35,160 nt of DNA from an uncultured Candidatus Saccharibacteria bacterium (GCA_964593965.1 CAZQKU010000001.1:1-35160); one strand, 5' to 3'; numbered from the stretch's first letter, positions 169 to 10,758 are shown. Made by a program: numbers and translations. The notes: a model not told the origin generated them from the letters alone.

Positions 169-801
169 ATGCCCGAAATAGACATTACTGACGAGCAAGC
201 GGCTTTGCTTGTGCAAAACGGGGATAAGGATAAATTCGGCCTTTTGATGGATCGGTACAAGGCTCGGCTTTTTCGGTATGGGCGCAAGTTCCTGGCCAAT
301 GAGGACAACATTGACGACGTCGTCCAGGACGTGTTCATCAAGGCCTACCAGAACATCCGCAGTTTCGATGTGTCGCAGAAGTTCTCGCCGTGGATATATC
401 GCATCGCTCACAACACGTACATCAACGCCATCAAGAAAATTTCCCGCGGGCCGATATATACTTTTGATTTTGACACTATCGTTTCGCACCCGGTCTATGA
501 GGATCCGCTCATCAAGGAAACCGAAGAAGTGGAGATGAAAAAAATGGTGGAAAAAGGTCTCGGCACCCTGTCGCCGAATTATCGGGAAATCGTCATTCTC
601 TACTACACCGAAGAATTGAGCTATAAAGAAATCGCCGACATTTTACGCATCCCCATAGGCACGGTCGGCATCAGGCTTAAACGGGCGAAGGAGGCGTTGA
701 AGAAAGGTTTCCTAGAAGAGTCGGCACGAAAGGAAGAAGAAAGAGAAAGCACAAGGGAAATAGAAAAGGTCGGCAGGGAAAGCGGGGAAAGAAAAAAATA
801 A
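169..801 (+). CDS. ECF-family (group 4) RNA polymerase sigma-70 factor
   Basis: 210-aa ORF. Region 2 reads DDVVQDVFIKAYQNIRSFD..FSPWIYRIAHNTYINAIKK. The region 4 HTH reads LSYKEIADILRIPIGTVGIRLKRAKEALKK. TATAAT at 157-162 lies 6 nt before the ATG. Confidence 0.9.
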   Translation: MPEIDITDEQAALLVQNGDKDKFGLLMDRYKARLFRYGRKFLANEDNIDDVVQDVFIKAYQNIRSFDVSQKFSPWIYRIAHNTYINAIKKISRGPIYTFDFDTIVSHPVYEDPLIKETEEVEMKKMVEKGLGTLSPNYREIVILYYTEELSYKEIADILRIPIGTVGIRLKRAKEALKKGFLEESARKEEERESTREIEKVGRESGERKK

Positions 802-806
802 AAAAC

Positions 807-1700
807 ATGAACAACAATAAAACACAACAGAATACTATAGAAAAAAATGTTCTCGAAAAGATACAATCGGGTGAAGTAAAAATGCGCTCGAAGACCTATT
901 TCGTACTCAAAGTAGCTCTGCTTGTCATCGTGGCTTTACTTGTTCTTGTTACGTCGGCTCTGCTTGTCAGCTTCATGATCTTTTCTCTACGGGTATCAGG
1001 ACGACTATTTCTTTTGGGTTTCGGTGAACGCGGTCTCATGGCTTTCTTTGTCACTTTTCCATGGTTTATTCTTATCGCTGATATTCTTTTTGTCATCCTC
1101 TTTGAACGTCTACTCAATCATTTCAAATTCGCCTACCGGACGCCGCTTGTCTATACGATCGGTGCGAGCGCGCTTATTATCATTTTGGCCGGCTTTGGCC
1201 TCGATCGGATCTCTTTCCACGAAACGCTTTTTCAGGAAGCGGCTGAACATCACCTCGGTCCGGTCGGTGGTCTCTATACGGATATCCGATTGCCACCGCG
1301 GCAGGAAGGGGTTTTCCGCGGTATTGTCACGAGTGTGGCCACAAATATTTCTGCTATGCCGCCGGGGTGGCCAGCCTACAATATGGGTACTTCCAGTATG
1401 GTCAGTACCAACTCTGCTGGCCCATTCATCAACGCTTTCACCATGCGTCGCTATGATGAAGATGTGGATACTGATTCTGCTACCGATACGGCCATGACAT
1501 GGTACGTCATTCTGCCGACGGGCGTATCGGTCGCTGGTTTCGTCAAGCCGGGTGATGTTGTTCTCGTAGCTGGGGATGTATTGGCGGCGAGTGGAACGGC
1601 AAGTGGAACAGTTGGTGGCAACAGTAATGGCACGAGTACTGGTAGCGGCACTATTCGCGCGTACGGCATCAGGGAAATATCAGCGGGAGATGAGCAATAA
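807..1700 (+). CDS. Polytopic membrane protein, putative cognate anti-sigma factor
   Basis: 297-aa ORF starting 6 nt after the sigma stop codon. It has several hydrophobic helices (e.g. YFVLKVALLVIVALLVLVTSALLVSFMIF) and a Ser/Thr/Gly-rich C-terminal tail. The anti-sigma role is inferred from position only; no ZAS motif was seen. Confidence 0.6.
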   Translation: MNNNKTQQNTIEKNVLEKIQSGEVKMRSKTYFVLKVALLVIVALLVLVTSALLVSFMIFSLRVSGRLFLLGFGERGLMAFFVTFPWFILIADILFVILFERLLNHFKFAYRTPLVYTIGASALIIILAGFGLDRISFHETLFQEAAEHHLGPVGGLYTDIRLPPRQEGVFRGIVTSVATNISAMPPGWPAYNMGTSSMVSTNSAGPFINAFTMRRYDEDVDTDSATDTAMTWYVILPTGVSVAGFVKPGDVVLVAGDVLAASGTASGTVGGNSNGTSTGSGTIRAYGIREISAGDEQ

Positions 1701-1893: not shown

Positions 1894-2319
1894 ATGATTA
1901 AAAAATTGTTCTTGCCGTGTGTGGTGATTGTCGGCTTTATTGGTTTTGTTATCTACGGGCGGATGAAGGCGGCGCCGAGTACGGCGATAGTTCCACGTAT
2001 TTCGGTTTCTCCTACACTAGCTACGACAACCACTGGCCAATATAAAGACGGTACCTATACCGGCAGTGTGGCCGATGCGTATTATGGCAATGTTCAGGTG
2101 CAGGCGATAGTACAGAATGGCAACATCGCCGATGTTCAGTTTCTTCAATACCCGAGTGACAACGGCAATAGTGCGAATATCAGCCAGCGTTCTATGCCGC
2201 TTCTCAAAGCCGAAGCCATCAGTGCCCAAAGCGCCACTGTTGATATCATCTCCGGCGCTACCCAGACAAGTCAGGCTTTTCAACAGTCACTGACGGCGGC
2301 ATTGAATCAGGCTTCTTAG
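1894..2319 (+). CDS. FMN-binding domain protein, membrane anchored (predicted ApbE substrate)
   Basis: 141 aa. An N-terminal hydrophobic anchor (LFLPCVVIVGFIGFVIY) is followed by an FMN_bind-type domain carrying the flavinylation motif DIISGATQTS. TATACT at 1881-1886 lies 7 nt before the ATG. Confidence 0.85.
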   Translation: MIKKLFLPCVVIVGFIGFVIYGRMKAAPSTAIVPRISVSPTLATTTTGQYKDGTYTGSVADAYYGNVQVQAIVQNGNIADVQFLQYPSDNGNSANISQRSMPLLKAEAISAQSATVDIISGATQTSQAFQQSLTAALNQAS

Positions 2320-2363
2320 ATTTTAGACTAAAGACTAATGTCGCGGCAGAATAAAAAATAAAG

Positions 2364-3224
2364 ATGCGTGAAACAAAAATCATCATGGGTATGCCGGTGA
2401 CGGTGGAGATTGTTGAGAACGCCGACACTGCCGGCGTTCTTGTTGATTTTTCGAGCCTCATGCGCGAAGTCTTCGACTACTTTACCTATGTTGATGAAAA
2501 GTTCAGCACATATAAAAGTACCAGCGAAATCAGTGCTATCAATGCCGGCAAATTGGTGCTGGCTGATTACAGCGACGACATGAAAGAAATTTTTATGCTG
2601 GCGGAAAAGACAAAAAGAGAGACGGATGGATATTTTGATATTGTCAATCAGGATGGAAAATACGATCCGTCGGGTATCGTCAAAGGTTGGGCGATTTGGA
2701 ATGCGGGAAAAATTCTCCGGCGGCGCGGGGTGGAAAACTTTCTTGTTGATGCCGGTGGCGATGTACAAACAGCCGGTTTGAAAAGTGGCGATAAAAATAG
2801 CTCTGGCAAAAATAGTATAGGCGAAAAATGGAGCATCGGCATCGCCGATCCGTTTGCTAAAAATTATGGTGGTACAGTTATGACGGGTGCGCCGAGCAAA
2901 GTAGTCAACGTGATCCGTGTTAGTGGGGAAGGTGTAGCCACATCGGGAACGGCCATTCGTGGTCAGCACATTTATAATCCACATAAACGTACGTTCGACC
3001 AGAAAGATAGCCACGGCGAGACAGGTGACGGTATTTATGACATTGTCAGTCTGACCGTTATCGGTTCCAATATATATGAAGCTGATCGTTTTGCTACAGC
3101 CGCTTTTGCCATGGGGAGGCGTGGTATCGAGTTCATCGAAAATGTAGAAGGTCTCGAGGGTTACATGATTGATAAAGATGGCATGGCTATCATGACCAGC
3201 GGTTTTAAGAAATATGTTGTGTAG
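2364..3224 (+). CDS. apbE: FAD:protein FMN transferase (ApbE family)
   Basis: 286 aa with ApbE-like blocks: FSTYKSTSEISAIN, DPSGIVKGWA, LVDAGGDVQ, VATSGTA and ADRFATAAFAMG. No N-terminal signal peptide or lipobox is visible. Confidence 0.88.
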   Translation: MRETKIIMGMPVTVEIVENADTAGVLVDFSSLMREVFDYFTYVDEKFSTYKSTSEISAINAGKLVLADYSDDMKEIFMLAEKTKRETDGYFDIVNQDGKYDPSGIVKGWAIWNAGKILRRRGVENFLVDAGGDVQTAGLKSGDKNSSGKNSIGEKWSIGIADPFAKNYGGTVMTGAPSKVVNVIRVSGEGVATSGTAIRGQHIYNPHKRTFDQKDSHGETGDGIYDIVSLTVIGSNIYEADRFATAAFAMGRRGIEFIENVEGLEGYMIDKDGMAIMTSGFKKYVV

Positions 3225-3279
3225 AAGTGTTGTATAATTTGGTACATCTTATATTTTTGCCCATTCACTCATTTCCTCT

Positions 3280-5013
3280 ATGTCCTTCATCGACACAATC
3301 CTCAATAAGATCACCATGTACCGTTTGGCGTTGTACTATTTGATATTTCTCGTTCTGGCCGCCGCAGTGCTCGGTATGTTCGGGCATGTGTCATACGGAC
3401 CGGTGGCTATTCTTTTTTCGGCATTCTATATCACCCTCGTCTGCCTCGTGGTTAATGCCGTCTTCGCCTATTTCTTCGAGGCACCGGCCAATCCCGAATC
3501 GGTCTACATCACCGCTCTCATTCTTACCCTCATCATCGCGCCGATCCATTCGGCTACTGACATCCTATTTTTCGCTGTAGCAACGTGGGCTTCGATCTGG
3601 GCAATGGCTTCGAAGTACATTCTCGCCATCGGCAAAAAGCATGTCTTCAATCCCGCCGCTATCGCTGTGGTCATCACCGCTTTTTCGGTCGGTTTGTCGG
3701 CGAATTGGTGGGTGGGCACGGTCTGGATGTTGCCGTTCGTCGCGGTTGGTGGCTTGCTCGTGGTGCGGAAACTTCAACGTTTCAAAATGATGGGGAGTTT
3801 CGTGGCGGCCGCCCTCGTCGTCGTGATCATTCATCATCCGGCGGTGGTGACGATATGGAAAGCTCTCGCCGAGACGCCACTTATTTTCTTCGCTTGTATC
3901 ATGCTGACGGAGCCATTGACCGCGCCTTCGACGCAGAAAATACGTATCGTCTACGGTGTTTTGGTCGGCTTGCTTTTTGCGCCATTTGTGCATATCGGTT
4001 CCATATATTCGACGCCAGAGCTGGCGCTCGTTGTCGGCAACGTTTTTGCTTTTATGGTCGTAAGTCCGAAGAAAAAGTTCGTTTTGAAACTGCGCGAGAA
4101 AAAGCAAGTGGCGGCGGGGACGTTCGAGTTTTGGTTCGAGGAAGCGGGAAAAGGCGGCGCGGGGAAAGATGGAACTCGCGGCAAACTTACCAATTTTACA
4201 TTCCGACCGGGTCAATATCTCGAGTGGACGCTTGAGCCGAAATTGGGTCTCCCGGAAAAATCGGACGGTTCATCGACGGCTATTTCATTTTCATCATTTA
4301 TCGCCGGTTTCCGCCGCATCTTTTTTAATATTTTTTCAGCGGACAATCGCGGTATTCGTCACTATTTTACTATTGCTTCATCGCCAGGAGAAGCGGCAGA
4401 AAAGGGCATTGCCATCGGAGTCAAATTTTATGGACATGTTGCGGGCGGTAGCGGACAGTCGAGTACTTTTAAAAAAGTTCTCATGGCTATGAAGCCCGGC
4501 GATACGATCGTGGCGTCGGGCATGGCGGGGGATTTTTTTCTGCCGCCGAAAGTTGTCACATCGATCAAGGGAAAAGATGTACCGACGAGCGATCAGCGCA
4601 TCGTCATGATGGCCGGTGGTATTGGTATTACGCCGTTTCGCAGTATGATTGCCGATTTGCTTGACAGGAATGAGCAGAGACCCATCCGTATTATTTATTC
4701 CAATAAGACTGCCGCCGACATCGCCTACAAAGACATCTTCGACGAGGCGAAGAAACGCCTCGGCGTGAAGACTGTCTATACCCTCACCGATATCAACACG
4801 GATACCAACCCGAATGCCATTCCTGCCGGCTGGCGCGGGCGGCGCGGTTTTGTGGACGCAAAAATGATCGAGGAAGAAATACCCAGCTATATGAACTGCC
4901 TATTCTATCTCTCCGGCCCGCGGGCTATGGTGACAGCGTACGAAAATATTCTCTTTGACATGGGAGTGCCGGGATCGCAGATCAAGAAGGACTTTTTCCC
5001 GGGGTTTGTATAG
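3280..5013 (+). CDS. Fusion protein: RnfD/NqrB-like polytopic membrane domain plus ferredoxin-NADP reductase-like FAD/NAD(P)-binding module
   Basis: 577 aa. The N-terminal ~250 aa are multi-TM and carry FFACIMLTEPLTAPS (compare FMxTDPVTxP of RnfD/NqrB). The C-terminal part has RHYFTIASSP (the RxYS FAD motif), MMAGGIGITPFRSM (the GGxGxxP NAD(P) motif) and YLSGPRAMV. Confidence 0.85.
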   Translation: MSFIDTILNKITMYRLALYYLIFLVLAAAVLGMFGHVSYGPVAILFSAFYITLVCLVVNAVFAYFFEAPANPESVYITALILTLIIAPIHSATDILFFAVATWASIWAMASKYILAIGKKHVFNPAAIAVVITAFSVGLSANWWVGTVWMLPFVAVGGLLVVRKLQRFKMMGSFVAAALVVVIIHHPAVVTIWKALAETPLIFFACIMLTEPLTAPSTQKIRIVYGVLVGLLFAPFVHIGSIYSTPELALVVGNVFAFMVVSPKKKFVLKLREKKQVAAGTFEFWFEEAGKGGAGKDGTRGKLTNFTFRPGQYLEWTLEPKLGLPEKSDGSSTAISFSSFIAGFRRIFFNIFSADNRGIRHYFTIASSPGEAAEKGIAIGVKFYGHVAGGSGQSSTFKKVLMAMKPGDTIVASGMAGDFFLPPKVVTSIKGKDVPTSDQRIVMMAGGIGITPFRSMIADLLDRNEQRPIRIIYSNKTAADIAYKDIFDEAKKRLGVKTVYTLTDINTDTNPNAIPAGWRGRRGFVDAKMIEEEIPSYMNCLFYLSGPRAMVTAYENILFDMGVPGSQIKKDFFPGFV

Positions 5014-5047
5014 GTTTATTATGTTTAATTAAGGAGGATGGCCTGTG

Positions 5048-5066
5048 TTGTGCCCGGGGTGGGACT
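5048..5066 (-). repeat. Orphan copy of the tRNA-Leu(UAA) 3' end (att-like direct repeat)
   Basis: Identical to 12454-12472 (16 nt of the tRNA 3' end plus 3 nt downstream). The sequence diverges immediately beyond it, so no complete tRNA is present here. Confidence 0.6.
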
Positions 5067-5195
5067 TGGTCACGGATAATTTTCTCGCCGTCGCTCGAAA
5101 ATTTCCGCGACCCCGCCTCGCGGTCTCGTCTGTTGACTCGACAACGCTCCGGCTTTCTCGTTCCACACGCGAAGCGCGAGGGCGCTTCGCTCCCA

Positions 5196-5430
5196 GCACA
5201 AACTCACTTTGTTCGTTTGTGCCGATTCCTGAACGAAGTTCGAACCTTTTTCGCCGCGAATCCGGAACAATGAGGTGTCGCTTCGCGACGCTTCCTTAGT
5301 GTGGGGTCGTCCCATTGCGCCTTCGCTCCGCTCGGCGCTGGGAGAAGGGCGGACGGCAGCCGGGGGTGTGGGGGAAGGTCGCCGTCCGCCCTTCCTCTTC
5401 GTTTTCGCGCGCCGCCCTGCAGGTTTTTTC
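5196..5430 (+). repeat. GC-rich hairpin-dense repeat, copy A (inverted relative to copy B)
   Basis: The reverse complement of 10523-10758 aligns over ~215 nt with a handful of substitutions and two 1-nt indels. It contains a perfect 14-bp stem (5344-5357 / 5381-5394). GC-rich structured sequence continues outward across 5067-5195 and as a 9-bp hairpin at 5462-5488. Confidence 0.8.
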
Positions 5431-5553
5431 GGGCGGGGGCGGAACCAATTCAGAAATCCTCGTGGCTCATTTCCACCATATGAGCCACAATAATATTTAG
5501 CGCATGAATTGATACTTTGCATCGCGCGGAGAACCCACGCGAGCGATATGTCC

Positions 5554-6144
5554 TTACTCCACCAATTTCACTAGGTAACGCGTTGTAATCGCGCTTGAGA
5601 TATGCAGAAGTTTTTGGACGTCTTCGTTGGCAAAGATTTTATTTTTTTGTGCGAACAGAATGATCTTGTCGAGCTTTTTCTGCTTGTTGGACTGAATCTT
5701 AGCTTGAGCTTTGATGAGCAAGGCGTGAATGAATCCGGCTTGATATTGTTGCGCCGACGATTGCGCCTGTGGCACTGGCGAAGTCAGTGGCGTCGGCGCG
5801 GACGGCGCAGACTGTGGTTCAGATTGATTTGGAACCGGTTGAACTTCTTCAGAAGCTGGCGGATTATTGTTTACAGGAGTTGGCTGGTCTTCAACCGGCG
5901 TTTCTGGCTCATTTGGAGCAGAAATTGGCTCATCTGGCACCTCGCTTTTTGGCTGATTTACCCCTTGATTTTGATCTTCGACGGAAGTGTTAATAGAAAC
6001 GCTTTTAGGCGATTCTGGGGCCTCTGTGGGCAAATCGGTAGGCGTAGAGCCATCTGACTGGCTAGAAACGTCAGAAATCGGTACTTCATGAGTTTGAGCT
6101 TCTTCTGGAGGCGTAGCTATGTCTTGTGATTGATCATCATCCAT
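5554..6144 (-). CDS. Hypothetical protein: acidic/Pro-rich disordered N-terminus with a C-terminal winged-helix-like domain
   Basis: 196-aa ORF. The low-complexity N-terminal ~130 aa are rich in P/E/Q/S. The C-terminus reads KIILFAQKNKIFANEDVQKLLHISSAITTRYLVKLVE and looks HTH-like. It lies 25 nt downstream of the giant gene on the same strand. Confidence 0.6.
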   Translation of the reverse strand: MDDDQSQDIATPPEEAQTHEVPISDVSSQSDGSTPTDLPTEAPESPKSVSINTSVEDQNQGVNQPKSEVPDEPISAPNEPETPVEDQPTPVNNNPPASEEVQPVPNQSEPQSAPSAPTPLTSPVPQAQSSAQQYQAGFIHALLIKAQAKIQSNKQKKLDKIILFAQKNKIFANEDVQKLLHISSAITTRYLVKLVE

Positions 6145-6168
6145 GAGGAGGAATATTTTACCAGATTT

Positions 6169-9100
6169 TCATTTCATCAGCGCGTTGACCTCATTCATCG
6201 TTGCTACTCCAAAGAATCCAGTCGGGACCGTCAATCCTTGCGGCTCGAGTATCTCTTTCTTGTACGCTTGCTGGAACTTCATTAAAGCGGCTTTCGTTGC
6301 AAGACCGAAATATGTCGTCTCGTGTCCGGGAGAGCCTGCTCCATTCTTGGCGACGATGAAACCTTGAGAATTGAGAAATATCTGCAACTTCTTAACATCG
6401 CTACTGGTCACACCAGATTTTAATGTCCGTAAAAACGACGATCCGGAATTCGACGACGGCGTTTTTACAGAAATAACATTTTGCGTCGGAACATTTTGTG
6501 CTGGAATCGTTATTCCGTATTGATTAGCAACTTGCTGTGCCTGCGTGTAGAAGCCCATCGCCAGAAGATTATTGACTTGGCTTGAGGCACTGCCACCGCT
6601 AGAGCTGTAGCTGGTAGTAACAGCGGGTGGTAGGACTGCGTTTTTGACTGTTACTGTTATTAATGACGATGTAGCGTAATTCCCCGCGTTATCTCGTGCC
6701 ACGGCAACAATGGTATGCAATCCGTCAGAAACTGCTGTTGAATCCCATGTTGTCGTATATGGAGCGACCGTGATTTCTGATCCGATGTTGGTGGTACTAT
6801 CCAACTTGAATTGCACGCCTGCGACAGCTACATCATCGGAAGCTGTCGCGGACAAAGAGACCGCCGAACCGGCAACGGTAGAACCGCCTGAAGGTGATGT
6901 GAGAGCAACCGTCGGAGGTGTGGTATCAGTGGTCGTAAATGGCAGGATTGAGCCCGTGCTCGTTCCGGCCGAGTTCACCGCATATGCGCGGAAGTAGTAG
7001 GTGGTATTGGGTGTGAGGCCTGTAAAACTCTGACTGAATGTCGTTATACCAGTCTGACCGTTCAGGGTTGTAGTCGCAATGACCGTGGCGAGAGTCGGTG
7101 ATGTGCCGTATGCAAATCCAGATTGCGTAGCATCGGCTCCGCCAGTCGAAGTAATCGAAGCGTTCAGAGTTGCAGTCGAAGTCGAGATCGGCGAAGCGGC
7201 GACAGTTGAAATCGACGGTGCCACTATCGGGTCGCCATACATACCGAAGTCAGAAAAGTTAGAAGTACTGCAAGTTACCGTTTTGGCTCCTGTATTCACC
7301 GAGCAACCAGTGAGCGCGGTCCATGAACTGCCATCATATCTGTAGATCTTCAATGAAGACTCCAGAATGCCTGTAATATCACCAGAGACATAGCTCATCG
7401 TCACGGTCAGTGCTTGGCTGAATGTTGGTAGAGTCGTAGTGGCATCGGTCAAAGCTTTCAAATTGAAAATCTTATTGCCCACGAGCGACTTACTTGTCGG
7501 CGCGCCGGCTGAAGCAATGAAAGCTGTCGGGTCAAGACTTTTGATCTGGAAATTGGCGAAAGTGGATGTGCTGGTGAAAGATGTTGGAACAGTTATAGAT
7601 AGAGTATCCAGATTTAATGGTCCACCGGAAGCCGTAGTGAGCATGCTGGATGTCGAAGTAGATACAGCCGCATTGCCGGTACAACCGGTGGTAATGAAAG
7701 TTGAATCAGTAGAGCTGGCCGTACCATTTTTGAGATATACAAGATCGTTTGTGATGCTTAGGCGATTACTACGGACACGATAGTGGTACAAGACACAAGA
7801 TTGCAAGCCAGACACAGTAATCGAGTGACCGGTAATTTTTCGAGTGGTGGAAGAATTATCCTGTTCAGCGGTAGAGGTGGAATAATTGGAGGTGAGATCA
7901 AAATCGACGATGCTGGAAGACGAGGCATTCGATGTCCAACCGATGATGGCAGAAGATGCCGTCGTAGAAGTAGAAATATTACTTATTAAGGTGAGGGGAT
8001 GAATTAAAGCGTCAATTGCAGGCCATATACGATTTGCAATTACCGTTTCTCCAACAGTGTTCTGGTGCGTACCATCAGGATTATAGTAAGTGGTATTAGA
8101 GTTCTGTCCCGCTTGCCCCATAACAGGGTCATTGCCCATGTCTACTAACGCTTGGGCATATGTAGTATAGTTAGCGCGTAACGAAGCATTTGTAGCTTGC
8201 CTAACAACTTCGCTTGGATTCTCGGTATTGGGCAATACGGTAACGGCTATATTCTCCCAACCTACAGCTTGTCGAGCACTATAATAAGTGGGCAAATTAG
8301 TATATGCTGGTTCATTTGTTCCCTCCCATCCAACAAGTATGTTATTGACTAATGTTGAGTCAAAAAGCGGATCAACTTTGGTTGGCGCGTCGACTATCAA
8401 TTGGCTTGTCGTTTTACCAGAGACCGCCTGATTTACATATGGCACCTTAACAGTTTCTAAGCCATCTATGATGTCAGAGAAAGGAATAGCTCCTAACGCG
8501 CCGCCGGCAGAGATGCTATTACCATCGTATACTACTCTGTTCGTAAGTGGTAATGGCCACGTCCATGGAATATTGAACCTTGAAGCAAGATATGCATTTA
8601 CATTGTTAATCTCATTGAAAGAAAGAGCTCTATTATATATATAAACGGCTTGTATATAACCATTAAATAAAAAACTGCCATCTCCTCCTATATTCCAAAC
8701 AGATGTTGTGTCAAAGTTTGGGAGACCCGCACCCTCAGTTGCAAAAGTATTAAATGCAGATGGAGATCCATCAGAAGGAAGATAGCCATTCAGATAAATT
8801 AACTGGGTGCCGCTTGTACTGATGTTTGGATCGGGAGTGAATGAATCCTCATAAACATTTCCGTGTAATAAACTATTTGTGGTCGAAGAAAAATTGTAAT
8901 TGCCGTCGCCATAATTTTTGACCTGTGAACTACTTGTAACAAGCCACCATGCTCGATTTGAAGAAGATCCCTTATGCAACAAATTAGCATATGTAACACC
9001 AGATGAAGTTTGTTTATACACAATAAAGACGGTTGATGAACCAGTGTTGCCAAAATTAAGAACACTGGGATTACCTAAAGTTAGAAGCGTATTGGCACTA

Positions 9101-9384
9101 GCTCCAAATTGTACGCCAGAATATCCGCCGTCTTTATTTAAAGTTAATAACGGCTGGTTAGTAGCATTCGTATTCGTCGCATCATAACCATTCCCCGACT
9201 TATCAGCCCACAAAGCGATCTTATCGCTCTCTAATGTCGCAGGCTGTGTCTTGGCAGTATCCTTGTAGAAAGAATTTGGTTGAGAGGCATCCAACCATAG
9301 TTGAAGACCCGGTATATCGGTTGGAGCGGAAATAGCAAACGCTTTTTGAGCTGACGATCCGAAAAATATAGCAAAAACCGCCAA
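6169..9384 (-). CDS. Giant secreted surface protein: LamG-like, SGNH/GDSL hydrolase, FN3-like repeats, Ig-like domain and a C-terminal peptidoglycan-binding domain
   Basis: 1071 aa. LamG-like segment: LQLWLDAS...NGYIQAVYIYNRALSFNEINNV. SGNH blocks: VVYDGNSISAGG and DGTHQNTVG. FN3 segment: GFAYGTSP...TGLTPNTTYYFRAYAVNSAG. Ig-like segment: TPPTVALTSP...ASDDVAVAGVQFKLD. PG_binding_1-like segment: VKKLQIFLNSQGF...YFGLATKAALMKFQ. The only in-frame start is TTG at 9384, which truncates an in-frame signal-peptide n-region. See the (CT)n finding for the alternative ATG at 9457. Confidence 0.85.
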   Translation of the reverse strand: MAVFAIFFGSSAQKAFAISAPTDIPGLQLWLDASQPNSFYKDTAKTQPATLESDKIALWADKSGNGYDATNTNATNQPLLTLNKDGGYSGVQFGASANTLLTLGNPSVLNFGNTGSSTVFIVYKQTSSGVTYANLLHKGSSSNRAWWLVTSSSQVKNYGDGNYNFSSTTNSLLHGNVYEDSFTPDPNISTSGTQLIYLNGYLPSDGSPSAFNTFATEGAGLPNFDTTSVWNIGGDGSFLFNGYIQAVYIYNRALSFNEINNVNAYLASRFNIPWTWPLPLTNRVVYDGNSISAGGALGAIPFSDIIDGLETVKVPYVNQAVSGKTTSQLIVDAPTKVDPLFDSTLVNNILVGWEGTNEPAYTNLPTYYSARQAVGWENIAVTVLPNTENPSEVVRQATNASLRANYTTYAQALVDMGNDPVMGQAGQNSNTTYYNPDGTHQNTVGETVIANRIWPAIDALIHPLTLISNISTSTTASSAIIGWTSNASSSSIVDFDLTSNYSTSTAEQDNSSTTRKITGHSITVSGLQSCVLYHYRVRSNRLSITNDLVYLKNGTASSTDSTFITTGCTGNAAVSTSTSSMLTTASGGPLNLDTLSITVPTSFTSTSTFANFQIKSLDPTAFIASAGAPTSKSLVGNKIFNLKALTDATTTLPTFSQALTVTMSYVSGDITGILESSLKIYRYDGSSWTALTGCSVNTGAKTVTCSTSNFSDFGMYGDPIVAPSISTVAASPISTSTATLNASITSTGGADATQSGFAYGTSPTLATVIATTTLNGQTGITTFSQSFTGLTPNTTYYFRAYAVNSAGTSTGSILPFTTTDTTPPTVALTSPSGGSTVAGSAVSLSATASDDVAVAGVQFKLDSTTNIGSEITVAPYTTTWDSTAVSDGLHTIVAVARDNAGNYATSSLITVTVKNAVLPPAVTTSYSSSGGSASSQVNNLLAMGFYTQAQQVANQYGITIPAQNVPTQNVISVKTPSSNSGSSFLRTLKSGVTSSDVKKLQIFLNSQGFIVAKNGAGSPGHETTYFGLATKAALMKFQQAYKKEILEPQGLTVPTGFFGVATMNEVNALMK

Positions 9385-9431
9385 AATGACGATGACACAT
9401 TTTGCCTTCCAATTTTTAGAGAGAGCTTCTA

Positions 9432-9446
9432 CTCTCTCTCTCTCTC
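9432..9446. repeat. (CT)7.5 dinucleotide microsatellite in the 5' region of the giant surface-protein gene
   Basis: CTCTCTCTCTCTCTC is read directly at 9432-9446. It lies between an out-of-frame ATG (9457-9455, minus strand) and the open frame of the 1071-aa ORF. Confidence 0.9.
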
Positions 9447-9603
9447 GTTAATCGCATAATTAGTTTTTAATACGGCCACGGTTAATAATTTAGTGGACTT
9501 TTAATGACTGCTCCAAATCGTACTTATATACTCTTGTGAGATTGTGCTAATTATAAACCATCTATGCATTTTATGGAAATCAAAGTATATGCACCGTTTT
9601 TGC

Positions 9604-9633
9604 TTGACTTGCAGTAACCTTTAGGTATATACT
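9604..9633 (+). promoter_or_regulatory. Sigma-70-like promoter with no ORF downstream
   Basis: TTGACT at 9604-9609, then either N16 to TATATA (9626-9631) or N18 to TATACT (9628-9633). About 50 nt further on come two hairpins and a T-run (9648-9689). Confidence 0.4.
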
Positions 9634-9665
9634 CTTACTATCGGATCGGGGTGTCCCCGGTCGGT

Positions 9666-9689
9666 AAAAGGTCCCGCAAGGGACTTTTT
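9666..9689 (-). terminator. Bidirectional hairpin terminator downstream of the DUF3800 gene
   Basis: AAAAGGTCCC-GCAA-GGGACTTTTT sits directly after the stop codon at 9694-9696. A/T runs on both sides allow it to function on either strand. Confidence 0.55.
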
Positions 9690-9693
9690 ACGT

Positions 9694-10476
9694 TTATGGA
9701 AAGACTTTCAATCCGTAGCCGTCCACTTTTCCGTTGCTTCCTTTTCTCAATTTACTCTCTATTATCTGGAACGGTATGTAAGGTTCTTCCGAATTCAAAA
9801 CATGCCGAGCGATCGGATACGCGCACAGGTCGGCGATTTGCAGACCTATATCGTTATCTTTTTTCAATTTCATATTGAATTCGATGATGCGCTGCTTGAA
9901 GCGATCGCTACCGACATGGTATGTCCCCTTATCGATCACGCTGTTGTAGTGCGCGAGCAATTGAGTGTCTTCTTTCTTGCCTCTTTTTTCTATGTTGATC
10001 GACACGGTCGAAGCCGAGGTCTTTTCATCAGTGCAGAAGACCAATCGTTCGAGAATATATGAAAGACAGATCGTGTAAGGATTCTGAGCGATCTTTCCGT
10101 ATTTCTCGATATGCTTCTTCTTGTCGATCGCGACGGCTATGACCGTAAACCGTGCATCTTTTATTATCGCGTTGAGCTTTTCATAAAATTTTTTCTTCAG
10201 GTCGAGGTCGAATAGTATCTGGAATGCGCCGTCACATTTCCTGATATCTCTAGAATGCAGGATGACTTCGGTAGTCTTGAAAAACTCCATCTTGAGATCA
10301 TTGATCCTGCTGACCATGTCGTTATACTCAGTATCCTCAAAAAGACAGCCTGCAAGCAGAAATATCGGAAAGTTTTCATCGACAAAACCCAGACCGTGAT
10401 CACCGGTTTCATCAAGAAAGAAATTATACTTTTTCGGTTGAGTGGGCATACGATGCGTGGTTATTCTTTCTGTCAT
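9694..10476 (-). CDS. DUF3800 domain protein
   Basis: 260 aa. The N-terminal YNFFLDETGDHG motif is characteristic of DUF3800. TATGAT lies 5 nt upstream of the ATG. Confidence 0.75.
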   Translation of the reverse strand: MTERITTHRMPTQPKKYNFFLDETGDHGLGFVDENFPIFLLAGCLFEDTEYNDMVSRINDLKMEFFKTTEVILHSRDIRKCDGAFQILFDLDLKKKFYEKLNAIIKDARFTVIAVAIDKKKHIEKYGKIAQNPYTICLSYILERLVFCTDEKTSASTVSINIEKRGKKEDTQLLAHYNSVIDKGTYHVGSDRFKQRIIEFNMKLKKDNDIGLQIADLCAYPIARHVLNSEEPYIPFQIIESKLRKGSNGKVDGYGLKVFP

Positions 10477-10522
10477 ATTTTATCATAAAATTTCAAAAAG
10501 AAATCTCTCCTCTTATTATCCT

Positions 10523-10758
10523 GAAAAAACCTGCAGGGCGTCGCGCGAAAACGAAGAGGAAGGGCGGACGGCGACCTCCCCCACACCCCCGGCCGCCGTC
10601 CGCCCTTCACGACGCGCCGAGCGGAGCGAAGGCGCAATGGGACGACCCCACACAAGGAAGCGTCGCGAAGCGACACCTCATTGTTCCAGATTCGCGGCGA
10701 AAAAGGTTCGAACTTCGTTCAGGAATCGGCACAAACTCACTTCGTTCGTTTTTTGTGC
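10523..10758 (-). repeat. GC-rich hairpin-dense repeat, copy B
   Basis: Inverted copy of 5196-5430. The same 14-bp stem is present (10559-10572 / 10595-10608). The differences between copies fall mostly in loops and spacers. Confidence 0.8.

What the first reader, a model, noticed from the sequence alone, without database searches (positions are those of the whole stretch)
1894..5013. Three-gene flavinylation/electron-transfer module with an unusual RnfD-like/FNR fusion and a signal-less ApbE
The module encodes three proteins. The first is a membrane-anchored FMN_bind protein with the canonical ApbE acceptor motif (DIISGATQTS). The second is an ApbE flavin transferase. The third is a 577-aa protein joining an RnfD/NqrB-like polytopic domain (MLTEPLTAPS) to a ferredoxin-NADP reductase-like module, with a Gly/Lys-rich insert (EEAGKGGAGKDGTRGK...) inside the FAD-binding half. 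Together they would move electrons from NAD(P)H across the membrane to a covalently flavinylated protein. That makes a minimal analogue of Rnf/Nqr or of flavin-based extracellular electron transfer, in an organism that otherwise looks metabolically reduced. There is a puzzle: this ApbE has no visible signal peptide or lipobox, whereas flavinylation of extracytoplasmic FMN_bind domains normally needs an exported ApbE. Either the FMN_bind domain faces the cytoplasm, or ApbE is exported unconventionally. The HSAT sequence (aa ~89-92) in the membrane domain could be a second flavinylation site.
Basis: partly seen in the sequence, partly recalled or inferred. Interest (0 to 1): 0.6.

Follow-up and report, generated by a model that had tools for sequence, protein, structure and literature searches.

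The report
Known Nqr/Rnf-like flavin electron-export operon
These three genes are a Patescibacteria copy of the published but biochemically untested "NQR/RNF-like" system, thought to pass electrons from NAD(P)H inside the cell to a protein outside that carries a covalently attached flavin. The one real puzzle is that the flavin-attaching enzyme has no export signal, and that turns out to be true of the whole family, not just this genome.

Summary
All three ORFs sit at the stated coordinates:
- A membrane-anchored FMN_bind protein with the acceptor motif DIISGAT (T123).
- An ApbE flavin transferase.
- A 577-aa fusion of a 10-helix RnfD/NqrB-fold domain to a complete FNR-type NAD(P)H/FAD module.

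The fusion is not unusual. It is the defining protein of the "NQR/RNF-like" flavinylation system (Méheust 2021; Huang 2024). It occurs in thousands of database proteins, in about 12 % of sampled Patescibacteria, and in Chloroflexota, Actinomycetota, Alphaproteobacteria and Spirochaetota.

The gene order FMN_bind → ApbE → fusion is conserved in about 65 of 80 related loci. The Gly/Lys-rich insert is one of six loop expansions specific to this lineage and is predicted to be disordered. "HSAT" is not a flavinylation site: the Thr is present in only 17 of 118 relatives, and no acceptor motif occurs anywhere in the fusion family.

ApbE truly lacks a signal peptide, because a TAA lies three codons upstream of its ATG. 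It is leaderless in essentially all related loci, including those where the FMN_bind partner is a lipoprotein. It is the only ApbE in this genome. The papers read here do not discuss this conflict between a cytoplasmic enzyme and an exported substrate.

Verdict: a new member of a known kind, of modest interest.

The parts
169..801 (+). ECF-type sigma-70 factor. It is the likely regulator of the module (context, inferred).
   Evidence: Pfam Sigma70_r2 and Sigma70_r4_2, and NCBIfam sigma70-ECF at 99 bits. An ECF sigma factor lies near the operon in 5 loci, including the window.
807..1700 (+). 297-aa multi-pass membrane protein directly after the sigma gene. It is a candidate anti-sigma factor (inference only).
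   Evidence: It starts 6 nt after the sigma gene's stop. It has no Pfam or NCBIfam hit. Loci L023 and L024 show the same sigma plus membrane-protein layout upstream of FMN_bind.
1894..2319 (+). NqrC/RnfG-like FMN_bind subunit. It has an N-terminal anchor (MIKK plus TM, residues 5-22) and the acceptor Thr123 in DIISGAT (nt 2260-2262), 18 residues from the C-terminus.
   Evidence: Pfam PF04205 at 3e-9. Best PDB match is 8p2a_A, an FMN-binding domain, at 4e-13 with DAVSGAT aligned to DIISGAT. It is the only FMN_bind in the genome. The family anchors have an N-in charge bias.
2364..3224 (+). Leaderless ApbE (FAD:protein FMN transferase) with four loop inserts specific to this lineage.
   Evidence: Pfam PF02424 at 3e-33. 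It matches PDB ApbE/Ftp structures such as 4xgw and 2o18. A TAA at 2352-2354 excludes an upstream start. The motifs DPSGIVKGW, DAGGD, GVATSG, RGQHIYNP and EADRFATAAFAMG are conserved across phyla. It is the only ApbE in the genome.
3280..4068 (+). RnfD/NqrB-fold membrane domain of the fusion (residues 1-263). It has 10 TM segments and an N-in/C-in topology.
   Evidence: Pfam PF03116 at 5e-9. A family profile matches A. vinelandii RnfD 8ahx_D at E 1e-3. The AF2 model has pLDDT 80.7, and the top 15 Foldseek hits are all RnfD (TMq 0.69-0.70) or NqrB. K/R residues fall 18 inside and 1 outside.
3547..3558 (+). HSAT (residues 90-93), in the predicted outward loop between TM3 and TM4. It is not a flavinylation site.
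   Evidence: T93 is Thr in 17 of 118 relatives, and the motif lacks the Gly of [ST]GA[ST].
3697..3705 (+). S140-A141-N142, followed by the invariant W143-W144. This short loop replaces the long RnfD/NqrB loop that carries the flavinylated Thr.
   Evidence: Family counts are S140 in 105/118 and A141 in 117/118. Position 142 is S in 86, T in 10 and N in 19 relatives; the window has N. The placement follows from motif order (FNPA helix, then this loop, then the GG..RK helix) and from the profile alignment to RnfD. This mapping is an inference and was not checked by residue-level superposition.
4069..5013 (+). FNR-type module (FAD-binding barrel plus NAD(P)H-binding domain), predicted cytoplasmic. 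Motifs: R360-x-Y362-x-T364, G446-G-I-G-x-T-P452, S545-G546-P547 and a C-terminal DFFPGF.
   Evidence: Pfam PF00175 at 2e-18. The family profile matches b5 reductase, NqrF and flavohemoglobin at 3e-18 to 1e-14. Foldseek on the full model (pLDDT 88) gives NqrF, flavohemoglobin and b5R at E about 1e-14. Invariant columns are listed.
4141..4188 (+). Gly/Lys-rich insert (about residues 288-303, EAGKGGAGKDGTRGKL) in a loop of the FAD-binding barrel. It is specific to this lineage and predicted to be disordered.
   Evidence: It is absent from the ~509-aa family consensus and present, with variable sequence, only in the closest relatives P0002-P0005. pLDDT is about 55, and below 50 at residues 292-294.
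4243..4338 (+). Second and largest insert (about residues 322-353), with a predicted hydrophobic or amphipathic helix at 337-353 (FSSFIAGFRRIFFNIFS).
   Evidence: Alignment A1. AF2 predicts helix H337-353 with pLDDT 54-75.

Best explanation
The three genes encode a member of the published "NQR/RNF-like" flavinylation-associated transmembrane electron-transfer system.

Proposed path: NAD(P)H reduces FAD in the cytoplasmic FNR-type module of the 577-aa protein. Electrons then cross the membrane through the fused 10-helix RnfD/NqrB-fold domain. That domain has lost its own covalent-flavin threonine and probably uses non-covalent flavin. The electrons reach FMN bound covalently to Thr123 of the small N-in/C-out anchored FMN_bind subunit on the outer face, and from there an unidentified extracytoplasmic acceptor.

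The adjacent ApbE is the enzyme that attaches the FMN, using FAD as donor. It is leaderless, so it most likely acts from the cytoplasmic side, on the acceptor motif 18 residues from the substrate's C-terminus, before or during export.

The upstream ECF sigma factor and membrane protein probably control expression in response to envelope stress.

What is shown here: gene content, domain folds, topology predictions, family-wide conservation of the operon and of the leaderless ApbE. What is inferred: direction of electron flow, the non-covalent flavin, the timing and side of flavinylation, the acceptor and the regulation.
For: Identity and context:
- Domain hits above Pfam cutoffs.
- RnfD/NqrB fold of the membrane half and FNR fold of the C-terminal half.
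- The gene order FMN_bind, ApbE, fusion recurs in about 65 of 80 related loci across five phyla.
- The cluster meets the published definition (PF03116 N-terminal domain, PF00175 C-terminal domain, within a flavinylation cluster) and the published model.

Topology:
- The 10-TM N-in/C-in topology puts 18 of 19 loop K/R residues inside and places the FNR module in the cytoplasm.
- FMN_bind anchors have the form 'MKK + TM'. N-flank K/R exceeds C-flank K/R in 32 cases, equals it in 16 and is lower in 6.
- Orthologues in Microbacteriaceae carry a lipobox.

Flavinylation:
- The acceptor motif is conserved, 17-21 residues from the C-terminus in 68 of 68 partners.
- The ApbE sequence motifs are strongly conserved.
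- The genome has one ApbE and one FMN_bind.
- The fusion family has no acceptor motif of its own.
- ApbE can modify 7-residue tags, which shows that a folded substrate is not needed (PMC12052999).
Against: - No biochemical data exist for any member of this family. The direction of electron flow and the acceptor are unknown.
- A leaderless ApbE next to an outward-facing substrate is a real inconsistency with the canonical model. In Salmonella, a cytosolic ApbE does not complement an ApbE knockout (PMC12052999).
- The window's own FMN_bind anchor has 2 K/R before the TM and 3 after it, so its topology is ambiguous when taken alone.
- No FAD synthetase was found in the ~83 %-complete genome, so the source of FAD is unclear.
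- 10 of 40 near-complete Patescibacteria genomes with the fusion have no ApbE at all. Covalent flavin may therefore not be obligatory.
Confidence: 0.75

Rival explanations
1. The FMN_bind domain faces the cytoplasm (N-out/C-in anchor). It is flavinylated there by the cytoplasmic ApbE, as happens with the soluble fumarate reductase of Klebsiella pneumoniae. On this reading the module is a membrane-bound intracellular NAD(P)H oxidoreductase and does not export electrons.
For: - ApbE is leaderless here and throughout the family.
- The window's anchor has more K/R after the TM (3) than before it (2).
- Cytosolic ApbE enzymes with cytosolic substrates are known (PMC12052999).
Against: - At family level the charge bias is N-in (32 against 6).
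- Microbacteriaceae orthologues are lipoproteins with a ...LAGC lipobox, yet they also sit next to a leaderless ApbE.
- The loop that replaces the RnfD/NqrB flavin site is predicted to face outward.
- The published AlphaFold-multimer model docks the FMN_bind flavin at that site.
- A membrane-spanning RnfD-fold domain would have no purpose if both flavins were cytoplasmic.
Confidence: 0.12
2. ApbE reaches the outer face by a route that needs no signal peptide, for example by piggy-backing on the complex, by non-classical secretion or by cell lysis. It then flavinylates FMN_bind extracytoplasmically in the canonical way.
For: The canonical requirement that ApbE be periplasmic (PMC12052999), together with the exported substrate.
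Against: - No hydrophobic or amphipathic N-terminus is seen in any of about 65 orthologues.
- The open frame begins only 8-20 codons before the conserved MGMP core in about 35 loci.
- This route would also need FAD outside the cell, and no conserved flavin exporter is found in the neighbourhood.
Confidence: 0.08
3. The leaderless ApbE homologue is not the transferase for FMN_bind. It acts in the cytoplasm as an FAD pyrophosphatase or flavin-trafficking protein, like the Treponema Ftp activity (PMC4436053, title and abstract only), and supplies FMN or loads the non-covalent flavin of the fusion protein.
For: - Its location is cytoplasmic.
- No RibF/FAD synthetase was detected in this genome.
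- 10 of 40 genomes have the fusion without any ApbE.
Against: - ApbE is tightly and often overlappingly linked to an FMN_bind gene that keeps a perfect acceptor motif in 68 of 68 cases.
- The same operon occurs in flavin-prototrophic, large-genome bacteria such as Mesorhizobium and Ktedonobacteria.
- The transferase-type sequence motifs are conserved.
Confidence: 0.05

Closest known systems
NQR/RNF-like flavinylation-associated system (Méheust et al. 2021, eLife, PMC8238504; Huang et al. 2024, bioRxiv 10.1101/2024.03.13.584918, Ktedonobacter racemifer model)
   Same: [quoted passage not shown]
- Loss of the NqrB/RnfD flavinylation Thr.
- Reported mainly in the candidate phyla radiation (CPR) and Actinobacteria.
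- Ktedonobacteria relatives (L013, L025) share 43-45 % identity and the same operon.
   Different: - This copy has six loop inserts in the FNR half and four in ApbE, all specific to its lineage.
- Its FMN_bind subunit is unusually short (141 aa).
- An ECF sigma gene pair lies upstream.
- The papers do not mention that the cluster's ApbE is leaderless. [quoted passage not shown]
Na+-NQR (NqrA-F) and Rnf (RnfABCDEG) complexes
   Same: - The RnfD/NqrB fold (TM-score 0.69-0.70 to RnfD, about 0.55 to NqrB).
- An NqrF-like FAD/NADH module.
- An NqrC/RnfG-like covalent-FMN subunit matured by ApbE.
   Different: - The genome has no RnfA/E or NqrD/E family gene, and no RnfB/C or NqrA.
- The membrane domain is about 260 aa, against about 350-410 aa.
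- The flavinylated loop is reduced to about 10 residues with no acceptor Thr.
- The NAD(P)H module is fused directly to the RnfD-like domain, so one-way electron flow without the semicircular path is expected.
- Nothing here bears on ion pumping.
Cytoplasmic ApbE of Klebsiella pneumoniae (flavinylates a soluble NADH:fumarate reductase), as summarised in PMC12052999
   Same: An ApbE without a signal peptide that works in the cytoplasm.
   Different: There the substrate is a soluble cytoplasmic enzyme. Here the only FMN_bind substrate is membrane-anchored with a predicted outward-facing domain, and is a lipoprotein in some orthologues.
Flavin-based extracellular electron transfer of Listeria (Ndh2, EetA/B, PplA, FmnB)
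   Same: Electrons are exported from NADH to a covalently flavinylated surface protein matured by an ApbE-family enzyme.
   Different: - The membrane components are different (Ndh2, a quinone and EetA/B, against a single RnfD-like::FNR fusion).
- Per PMC9973259 (abstract), FmnB acts outside the cytosol and relies on an ECF transporter for flavin trafficking. From my own knowledge, FmnB is an exported lipoprotein.
- No such exporter is conserved next to this operon.

Membership tests
NQR/RNF-like flavinylation system (Méheust 2021 definition) | [quoted passage not shown] | tested here: met
   PF03116 scores 36.3 bits (cutoff 27.7) at residues 145-259. PF00175 scores 67.7 bits at residues 443-554.
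NQR/RNF-like flavinylation system (Méheust 2021 definition) | [quoted passage not shown] | tested here: met
   FMN_bind and ApbE lie immediately upstream on the same strand. The same order is seen in about 65 of 80 related loci.
NQR/RNF-like flavinylation system (Méheust 2021 definition) | [quoted passage not shown] | tested here: inconclusive
   SignalP is not available here. ApbE has no leader. FMN_bind has an uncleaved-looking MIKK plus TM anchor that a signal-peptide predictor may or may not call.
NQR/RNF-like flavinylation system (Huang 2024 description) | The NqrB/RnfD flavinylation threonine is not conserved in the membrane subunit | tested here: met
   No [ST]G[AS][ST] motif occurs at any conserved column in 118 sequences, and none occurs in the window protein. 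The loop is reduced to S-A-N-W-W.
NQR/RNF-like flavinylation system | RnfD/NqrB three-dimensional fold of the membrane domain | tested here: met
   The AF2 model has pLDDT 80.7. The top 15 Foldseek PDB hits are all RnfD or NqrB chains (E 6e-5 to 1e-3, TMq 0.53-0.70).
NQR/RNF-like flavinylation system | Covalent FMN on the FMN_bind subunit and NAD(P)H-driven transmembrane electron transfer | not testable with these tools
   This needs biochemistry. Only the acceptor motif DIISGAT (T123) and the NAD(P)H/FAD motifs are shown.
Canonical Rnf / Na+-NQR complex | Presence of RnfA/RnfE or NqrD/NqrE (PF02508) core subunits in the genome | tested here: not met
   PF02508 has no match in the genome, which is 83 % complete. 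Only one PF03116 match exceeds the cutoff.
Canonical Rnf / Na+-NQR complex | Covalently flavinylated Thr in the RnfD/NqrB subunit | tested here: not met
   consistent.
ApbE (FAD:protein FMN transferase), canonical exported form | ApbE-family domain with conserved core motifs | tested here: met
   PF02424 at 3e-33, matches to PDB ApbE structures, and conserved motifs.
ApbE (FAD:protein FMN transferase), canonical exported form | N-terminal signal peptide or lipobox directing export | tested here: not met
   An in-frame TAA lies three codons upstream of the ATG. The N-terminus MRETKIIMGMP runs straight into the conserved core. The same holds in about 65 orthologues.
FNR-like (ferredoxin-NADP reductase superfamily) module | Two-domain FAD-binding barrel plus NAD(P)-binding Rossmann-type fold, with RxY[ST] and GGxGxxP motifs | tested here: met
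   The family profile matches PDB entries across both domains. Foldseek gives TMt 0.72-0.85 to NqrF, flavohemoglobin and b5R domains. R360, Y362, T364 and G446-P452 are invariant.

The most novel reading that the evidence does not exclude
Across the whole NQR/RNF-like family, the only available ApbE is cytoplasmic while its substrate domain is exported.

If both predictions hold, FMN is attached inside the cell to the acceptor motif, which always lies 17-21 residues from the C-terminus. The attachment would occur on the still-unfolded tail before or during Sec translocation. This "flavinylate first, export afterwards" route would spare these small cells an FAD exporter.

It would also mean that published surveys, which required signal peptides, have underestimated extracytoplasmic flavinylation in the candidate phyla radiation.
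Probability: 0.3. Interest if true: 0.65.

Novelty: new member of a known kind. Interest (0 to 1): 0.3.

Why it matters
For this genome, the module is the only flavinylation system. It has one ApbE, one FMN_bind protein and no Rnf/Nqr core. It is one of the few recognisable membrane redox devices in a ~0.8-Mb Patescibacteria genome. It could therefore be a route for re-oxidising NAD(P)H or for reducing something at the cell surface, such as iron, oxidised envelope components, or host- or environment-derived acceptors.

More generally, the family is widespread but has never been tested biochemically. The consistent pairing of a leaderless ApbE with an exported substrate has three possible meanings:
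- The topology assumed in the literature is wrong.
- There is an undescribed order of events in flavoprotein maturation.
- ApbE is exported by an unknown route.

Each of these can be tested in E. coli with three small genes.

Tried and rejected
- A single-sequence phmmer search of the fusion against the PDB found only FNR-type hits. The RnfD match appeared only with a profile of the membrane domain. By fold it appeared only after that domain was modelled alone, because in the full-length model the FNR hits filled the top 50.
- An upstream alternative start for ApbE is rejected because of the in-frame TAA.
- HSAT as a flavinylation site is rejected.
- S140-A141-X142 as a remnant covalent site: 96 of 118 relatives have Ser or Thr at position 142, but the window and its clade have Asn and the motif lacks Gly. 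It is not a conserved acceptor. I leave it as an observation.
- Twin-arginine (Tat) export of a pre-folded flavinylated FMN_bind is rejected. No RR motif occurs in the window anchor or in the actinobacterial lipoprotein leaders.
- I looked for a conserved terminal reductase or acceptor gene next to the operon. None is found. Only regulators, MacB-type ABC/HlyD modules and occasional VIT1, Nramp, MsrAB or P-type ATPase genes recur.
- Rfam found nothing in the GC-rich ORF-free stretch after the fusion gene.
- The promoter and terminator scans were not informative, with counts close to those of shuffled sequence.
- A literature search for ApbE together with Patescibacteria returned no papers.


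Full report
**What is there**

Three co-directional ORFs occupy 1894-2319 (141 aa), 2364-3224 (286 aa) and 3280-5013 (577 aa). Pfam assigns them as follows:
- FMN_bind (PF04205, 3e-9).
- ApbE (PF02424, 3e-33).
- For the 577-aa protein, NQR2_RnfD_RnfE (PF03116, 36.3 bits against a cutoff of 27.7, residues 145-259) and NAD_binding_1 (PF00175, 2e-18, residues 443-554).

NCBIfam gives only sub-threshold similarities to NqrF, flavohemoprotein and RnfD models.

The starts are secure:
- The FMN_bind ATG is the first codon after a stop.
- ApbE has an in-frame TAA (2352-2354) three codons before its ATG.
- The first 12 residues of the fusion (MSFIDTILNKIT) are conserved in homologues.

The FMN_bind protein carries the acceptor motif DIISGAT. 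The acceptor is T123 (nt 2260-2262), 18 residues from the C-terminus. Its closest solved relative is a crystallised covalent-FMN domain (8p2a_A, 4e-13), in which DAVSGAT aligns to DIISGAT.

**The fusion protein**

A 20-sequence family profile matches FNR-type two-domain reductases over both the FAD barrel and the NAD domain. Examples are cytochrome b5 reductase 2eix at 3e-18, and NqrF and flavohemoglobin at about 1e-15. The FAD-binding half is therefore real, although Pfam FAD_binding_6 misses it in the single sequence.

A profile of the membrane half matches A. vinelandii RnfD (8ahx_D residues 222-328, E 1e-3).

An AlphaFold2 model of the whole protein, built on 118 sequences, is confident (pLDDT 88, pTM 0.86). 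Its C-terminal half superposes on NqrF, flavohemoglobin and b5R domains.

A separate model of residues 1-268 (pLDDT 80.7) retrieves RnfD (TMq 0.69-0.70) and NqrB (about 0.55) as all of its top 15 PDB hits. Urea transporters rank next, far weaker at E above 0.3.

Hydropathy gives ten membrane segments. With N-in/C-in orientation, 18 of 19 loop Lys/Arg residues are cytoplasmic, and the FNR module is cytoplasmic.

**Not an unusual fusion**

The protein has more than 6,000 database relatives. They are typically about 509 aa long, and many are annotated as coming from Parcubacteria-type bacteria. At least 373 GTDB species representatives encode one. They span Patescibacteria, Chloroflexota (Ktedonobacteria), Alphaproteobacteria (Mesorhizobium, Kaistia), Spirochaetota and Microbacteriaceae.

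In an even sample of the window's phylum, 52 of 401 genomes have a hit, and about 46 of those are the full fusion.

In about 65 of 80 fetched loci the gene order is FMN_bind, ApbE, fusion, as in the window.

This is exactly the "NQR/RNF-like system" defined by Méheust et al. 2021 (PMC8238504 sections 13 and 23). Huang et al. 2024 modelled it for Ktedonobacter racemifer and reported that the NqrB/RnfD flavinylation Thr is not conserved in this subunit.

The window's genome has no RnfA/E or NqrD/E family gene and only this one RnfD-like protein. It is therefore not a canonical Rnf or Nqr.

**The inserts**

Relative to the 509-aa consensus, the window protein has six loop insertions, all in the FNR half:
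- Residues ~288-303, the Gly/Lys-rich stretch.
- Residues ~322-353.
- Residues 370-372.
- Residues 385-391.
- Residues 423-434.
- Residues ~505-510.

They are shared, with variable length and sequence, only with the closest relatives at 67-87 % identity.

The Gly/Lys stretch is predicted to be disordered (pLDDT about 55). The second insert contains a hydrophobic helix at 337-353 of moderate confidence.

The window's ApbE likewise has four inserts that orthologues lack. Loop expansion is therefore a lineage habit, not a feature of the mechanism.

**HSAT and a second flavin site**

HSAT lies at residues 90-93, in a predicted outward loop. Thr93 is Thr in only 17 of 118 relatives.

No [ST]G[AS][ST] motif occurs at any conserved column of the family, and none occurs in the window protein.

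The long loop that carries the flavinylated Thr in RnfD/NqrB is reduced to about ten residues. The family pattern there is G-x-S-A-[S/T/N]-W-W, and the window has Asn at the variable position.

The second-site idea is not supported, in agreement.

**The leaderless ApbE**

I used a test that does not depend on the choice of start codon: the distance from the preceding in-frame stop to the conserved MGMP core.
- In about 35 loci the frame opens only 8-20 codons upstream.
- Where the frame is longer, the conserved start M-[KR]-x-T-[RK]-x-[IL]-MGMP is still present.
- No hydrophobic segment or lipobox precedes it.

The divergent Saccharimonadia and Microbacteriaceae subgroup (core FEAIGT.W) is also leaderless.

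The partner looks exported:
- Its N-terminus is typically "MKK + 17-18 hydrophobic residues", with more Lys/Arg before the helix than after it (32 against 6, with 16 ties).
- In Microbacteriaceae it has a lipobox (…LAGC…).

The window's own anchor is ambiguous, with 2 K/R before the helix and 3 after it.

The window genome has a single ApbE and a single FMN_bind.

Among 40 near-complete Patescibacteria genomes with the fusion:
- 30 have ApbE, usually as one gene beside the fusion with an open frame of 243-279 codons.
- Two have a second ApbE copy.
- Ten have none.

The ApbE core motifs are strongly conserved across phyla, which argues for a working enzyme.

Neither flavinylation paper nor the 2025 ApbE review discusses this conflict. 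[quoted passage not shown] That probably explains their count of 127 clusters and contributes to their statement that the candidate phyla radiation is under-represented.

**How it most likely works**

Shown here: the parts, the folds, the predicted topology and the conservation.

Inferred:
- NAD(P)H reduces FAD in the cytoplasmic FNR module.
- Electrons cross through the RnfD-fold domain, probably via non-covalent flavin as in NqrB/RnfD.
- They reach the covalent FMN on T123 of the outward-facing FMN_bind subunit, which Huang's model docks at the vacated flavin site.
- From there they pass to an unknown acceptor.

For maturation, the simplest reading consistent with all the data is that ApbE acts from the cytoplasmic side. 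Two observations support this. The acceptor always lies 17-21 residues from the C-terminus (68 of 68). ApbE can modify tags of only seven residues (PMC12052999). Modification of the unfolded tail before or during export is therefore chemically plausible. This step is speculative.

Three rivals are kept open at lower odds: an inward-facing FMN_bind domain, unconventional export of ApbE, and a non-transferase role for ApbE.

**Context**

An ECF sigma factor (169-801) and a membrane protein with no family assignment (807-1700) lie directly upstream. The same arrangement occurs in a few other loci.

Across the family, the recurring neighbours are as follows:
- OmpR-type two-component systems (16-20 loci).
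- MacB-like ABC transporters with HlyD adaptors (10-19 loci).
- A CopA-like P-type ATPase (5 loci).
- VIT1 (4 loci).
- Nramp (3 loci).
- MsrA plus MsrB (3 loci).

This points loosely to envelope-stress or metal-related roles. It identifies no dedicated acceptor.

No FAD synthetase was detected in the 83 %-complete genome.

**Earlier notes and verdict**

Earlier notes from this scan on other genomes reached the same reading. I treat them as leads that agree with my results, not as support.

The finding is a real, correctly parsed locus that belongs to an already described but experimentally untested family. Its lineage-specific inserts are cosmetic, and the HSAT idea fails. The signal-less ApbE is a genuine, family-wide open question and the only element of wider interest.

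Noticed in passing
window 2364-3224: The window's ApbE carries four loop inserts that orthologues lack (for example AGLKSGDKNSS, YGGTVMTGAPS and TFDQKDSHGETG). This parallels the six inserts in the fusion protein, so loop expansion with low-complexity sequence seems to be a habit of this lineage.
   Followed up: partly
window 5045-5520: A GC-rich stretch directly after the fusion gene has no convincing ORF and no Rfam match. Earlier notes from this scan describe it as one of two inverted GC-rich end-modules of a decayed island at 5067-10758.
   Followed up: no
window 169-1700: An ECF sigma factor and a 297-aa multi-pass membrane protein with no family hit lie directly upstream of the operon. 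A sigma plus membrane-protein pair also precedes the operon in L023 and L024. This may be dedicated envelope-stress regulation.
   Followed up: partly
whole genome (G000): No FAD synthetase/RibF (PF06574) was found above the cutoff in the 791-kb, 83 %-complete assembly, although ApbE needs FAD as donor. The flavin is presumably imported, or the gene lies in the missing part of the genome.
   Followed up: partly
Patescibacteria genomes G363, G120, G131, G155, G200, G236, G279, G319, G326, G358: Ten of 40 near-complete genomes carry the RnfD-like::FNR fusion but have no detectable ApbE. Some versions of the system may therefore work without covalent flavin.
   Followed up: no
loci L072, L074, L077, L080 (Microbacteriaceae) and L042, L046, L050, L054, L061, L076: A divergent subgroup uses a Ser-type acceptor motif (V[SA]GSSLT) in the FMN_bind partner and an ApbE with a different N-terminal core (FEAIGT.W). 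The actinobacterial partners are lipoproteins.
   Followed up: partly
loci L034, L035, L045, L048 (VIT1); L023, L055, L058 (Nramp); L002, L017, L056 (MsrA+MsrB): Metal transporters or methionine-sulfoxide reductases occasionally lie next to the operon. These are hints towards iron or manganese handling or oxidative-damage repair as physiological contexts.
   Followed up: partly
window 3280-3315: The database gene call for this protein (P0001, 565 aa) starts at Met13. The 12 upstream residues are conserved in homologues, so the 577-aa form is the better call.
   Followed up: yes
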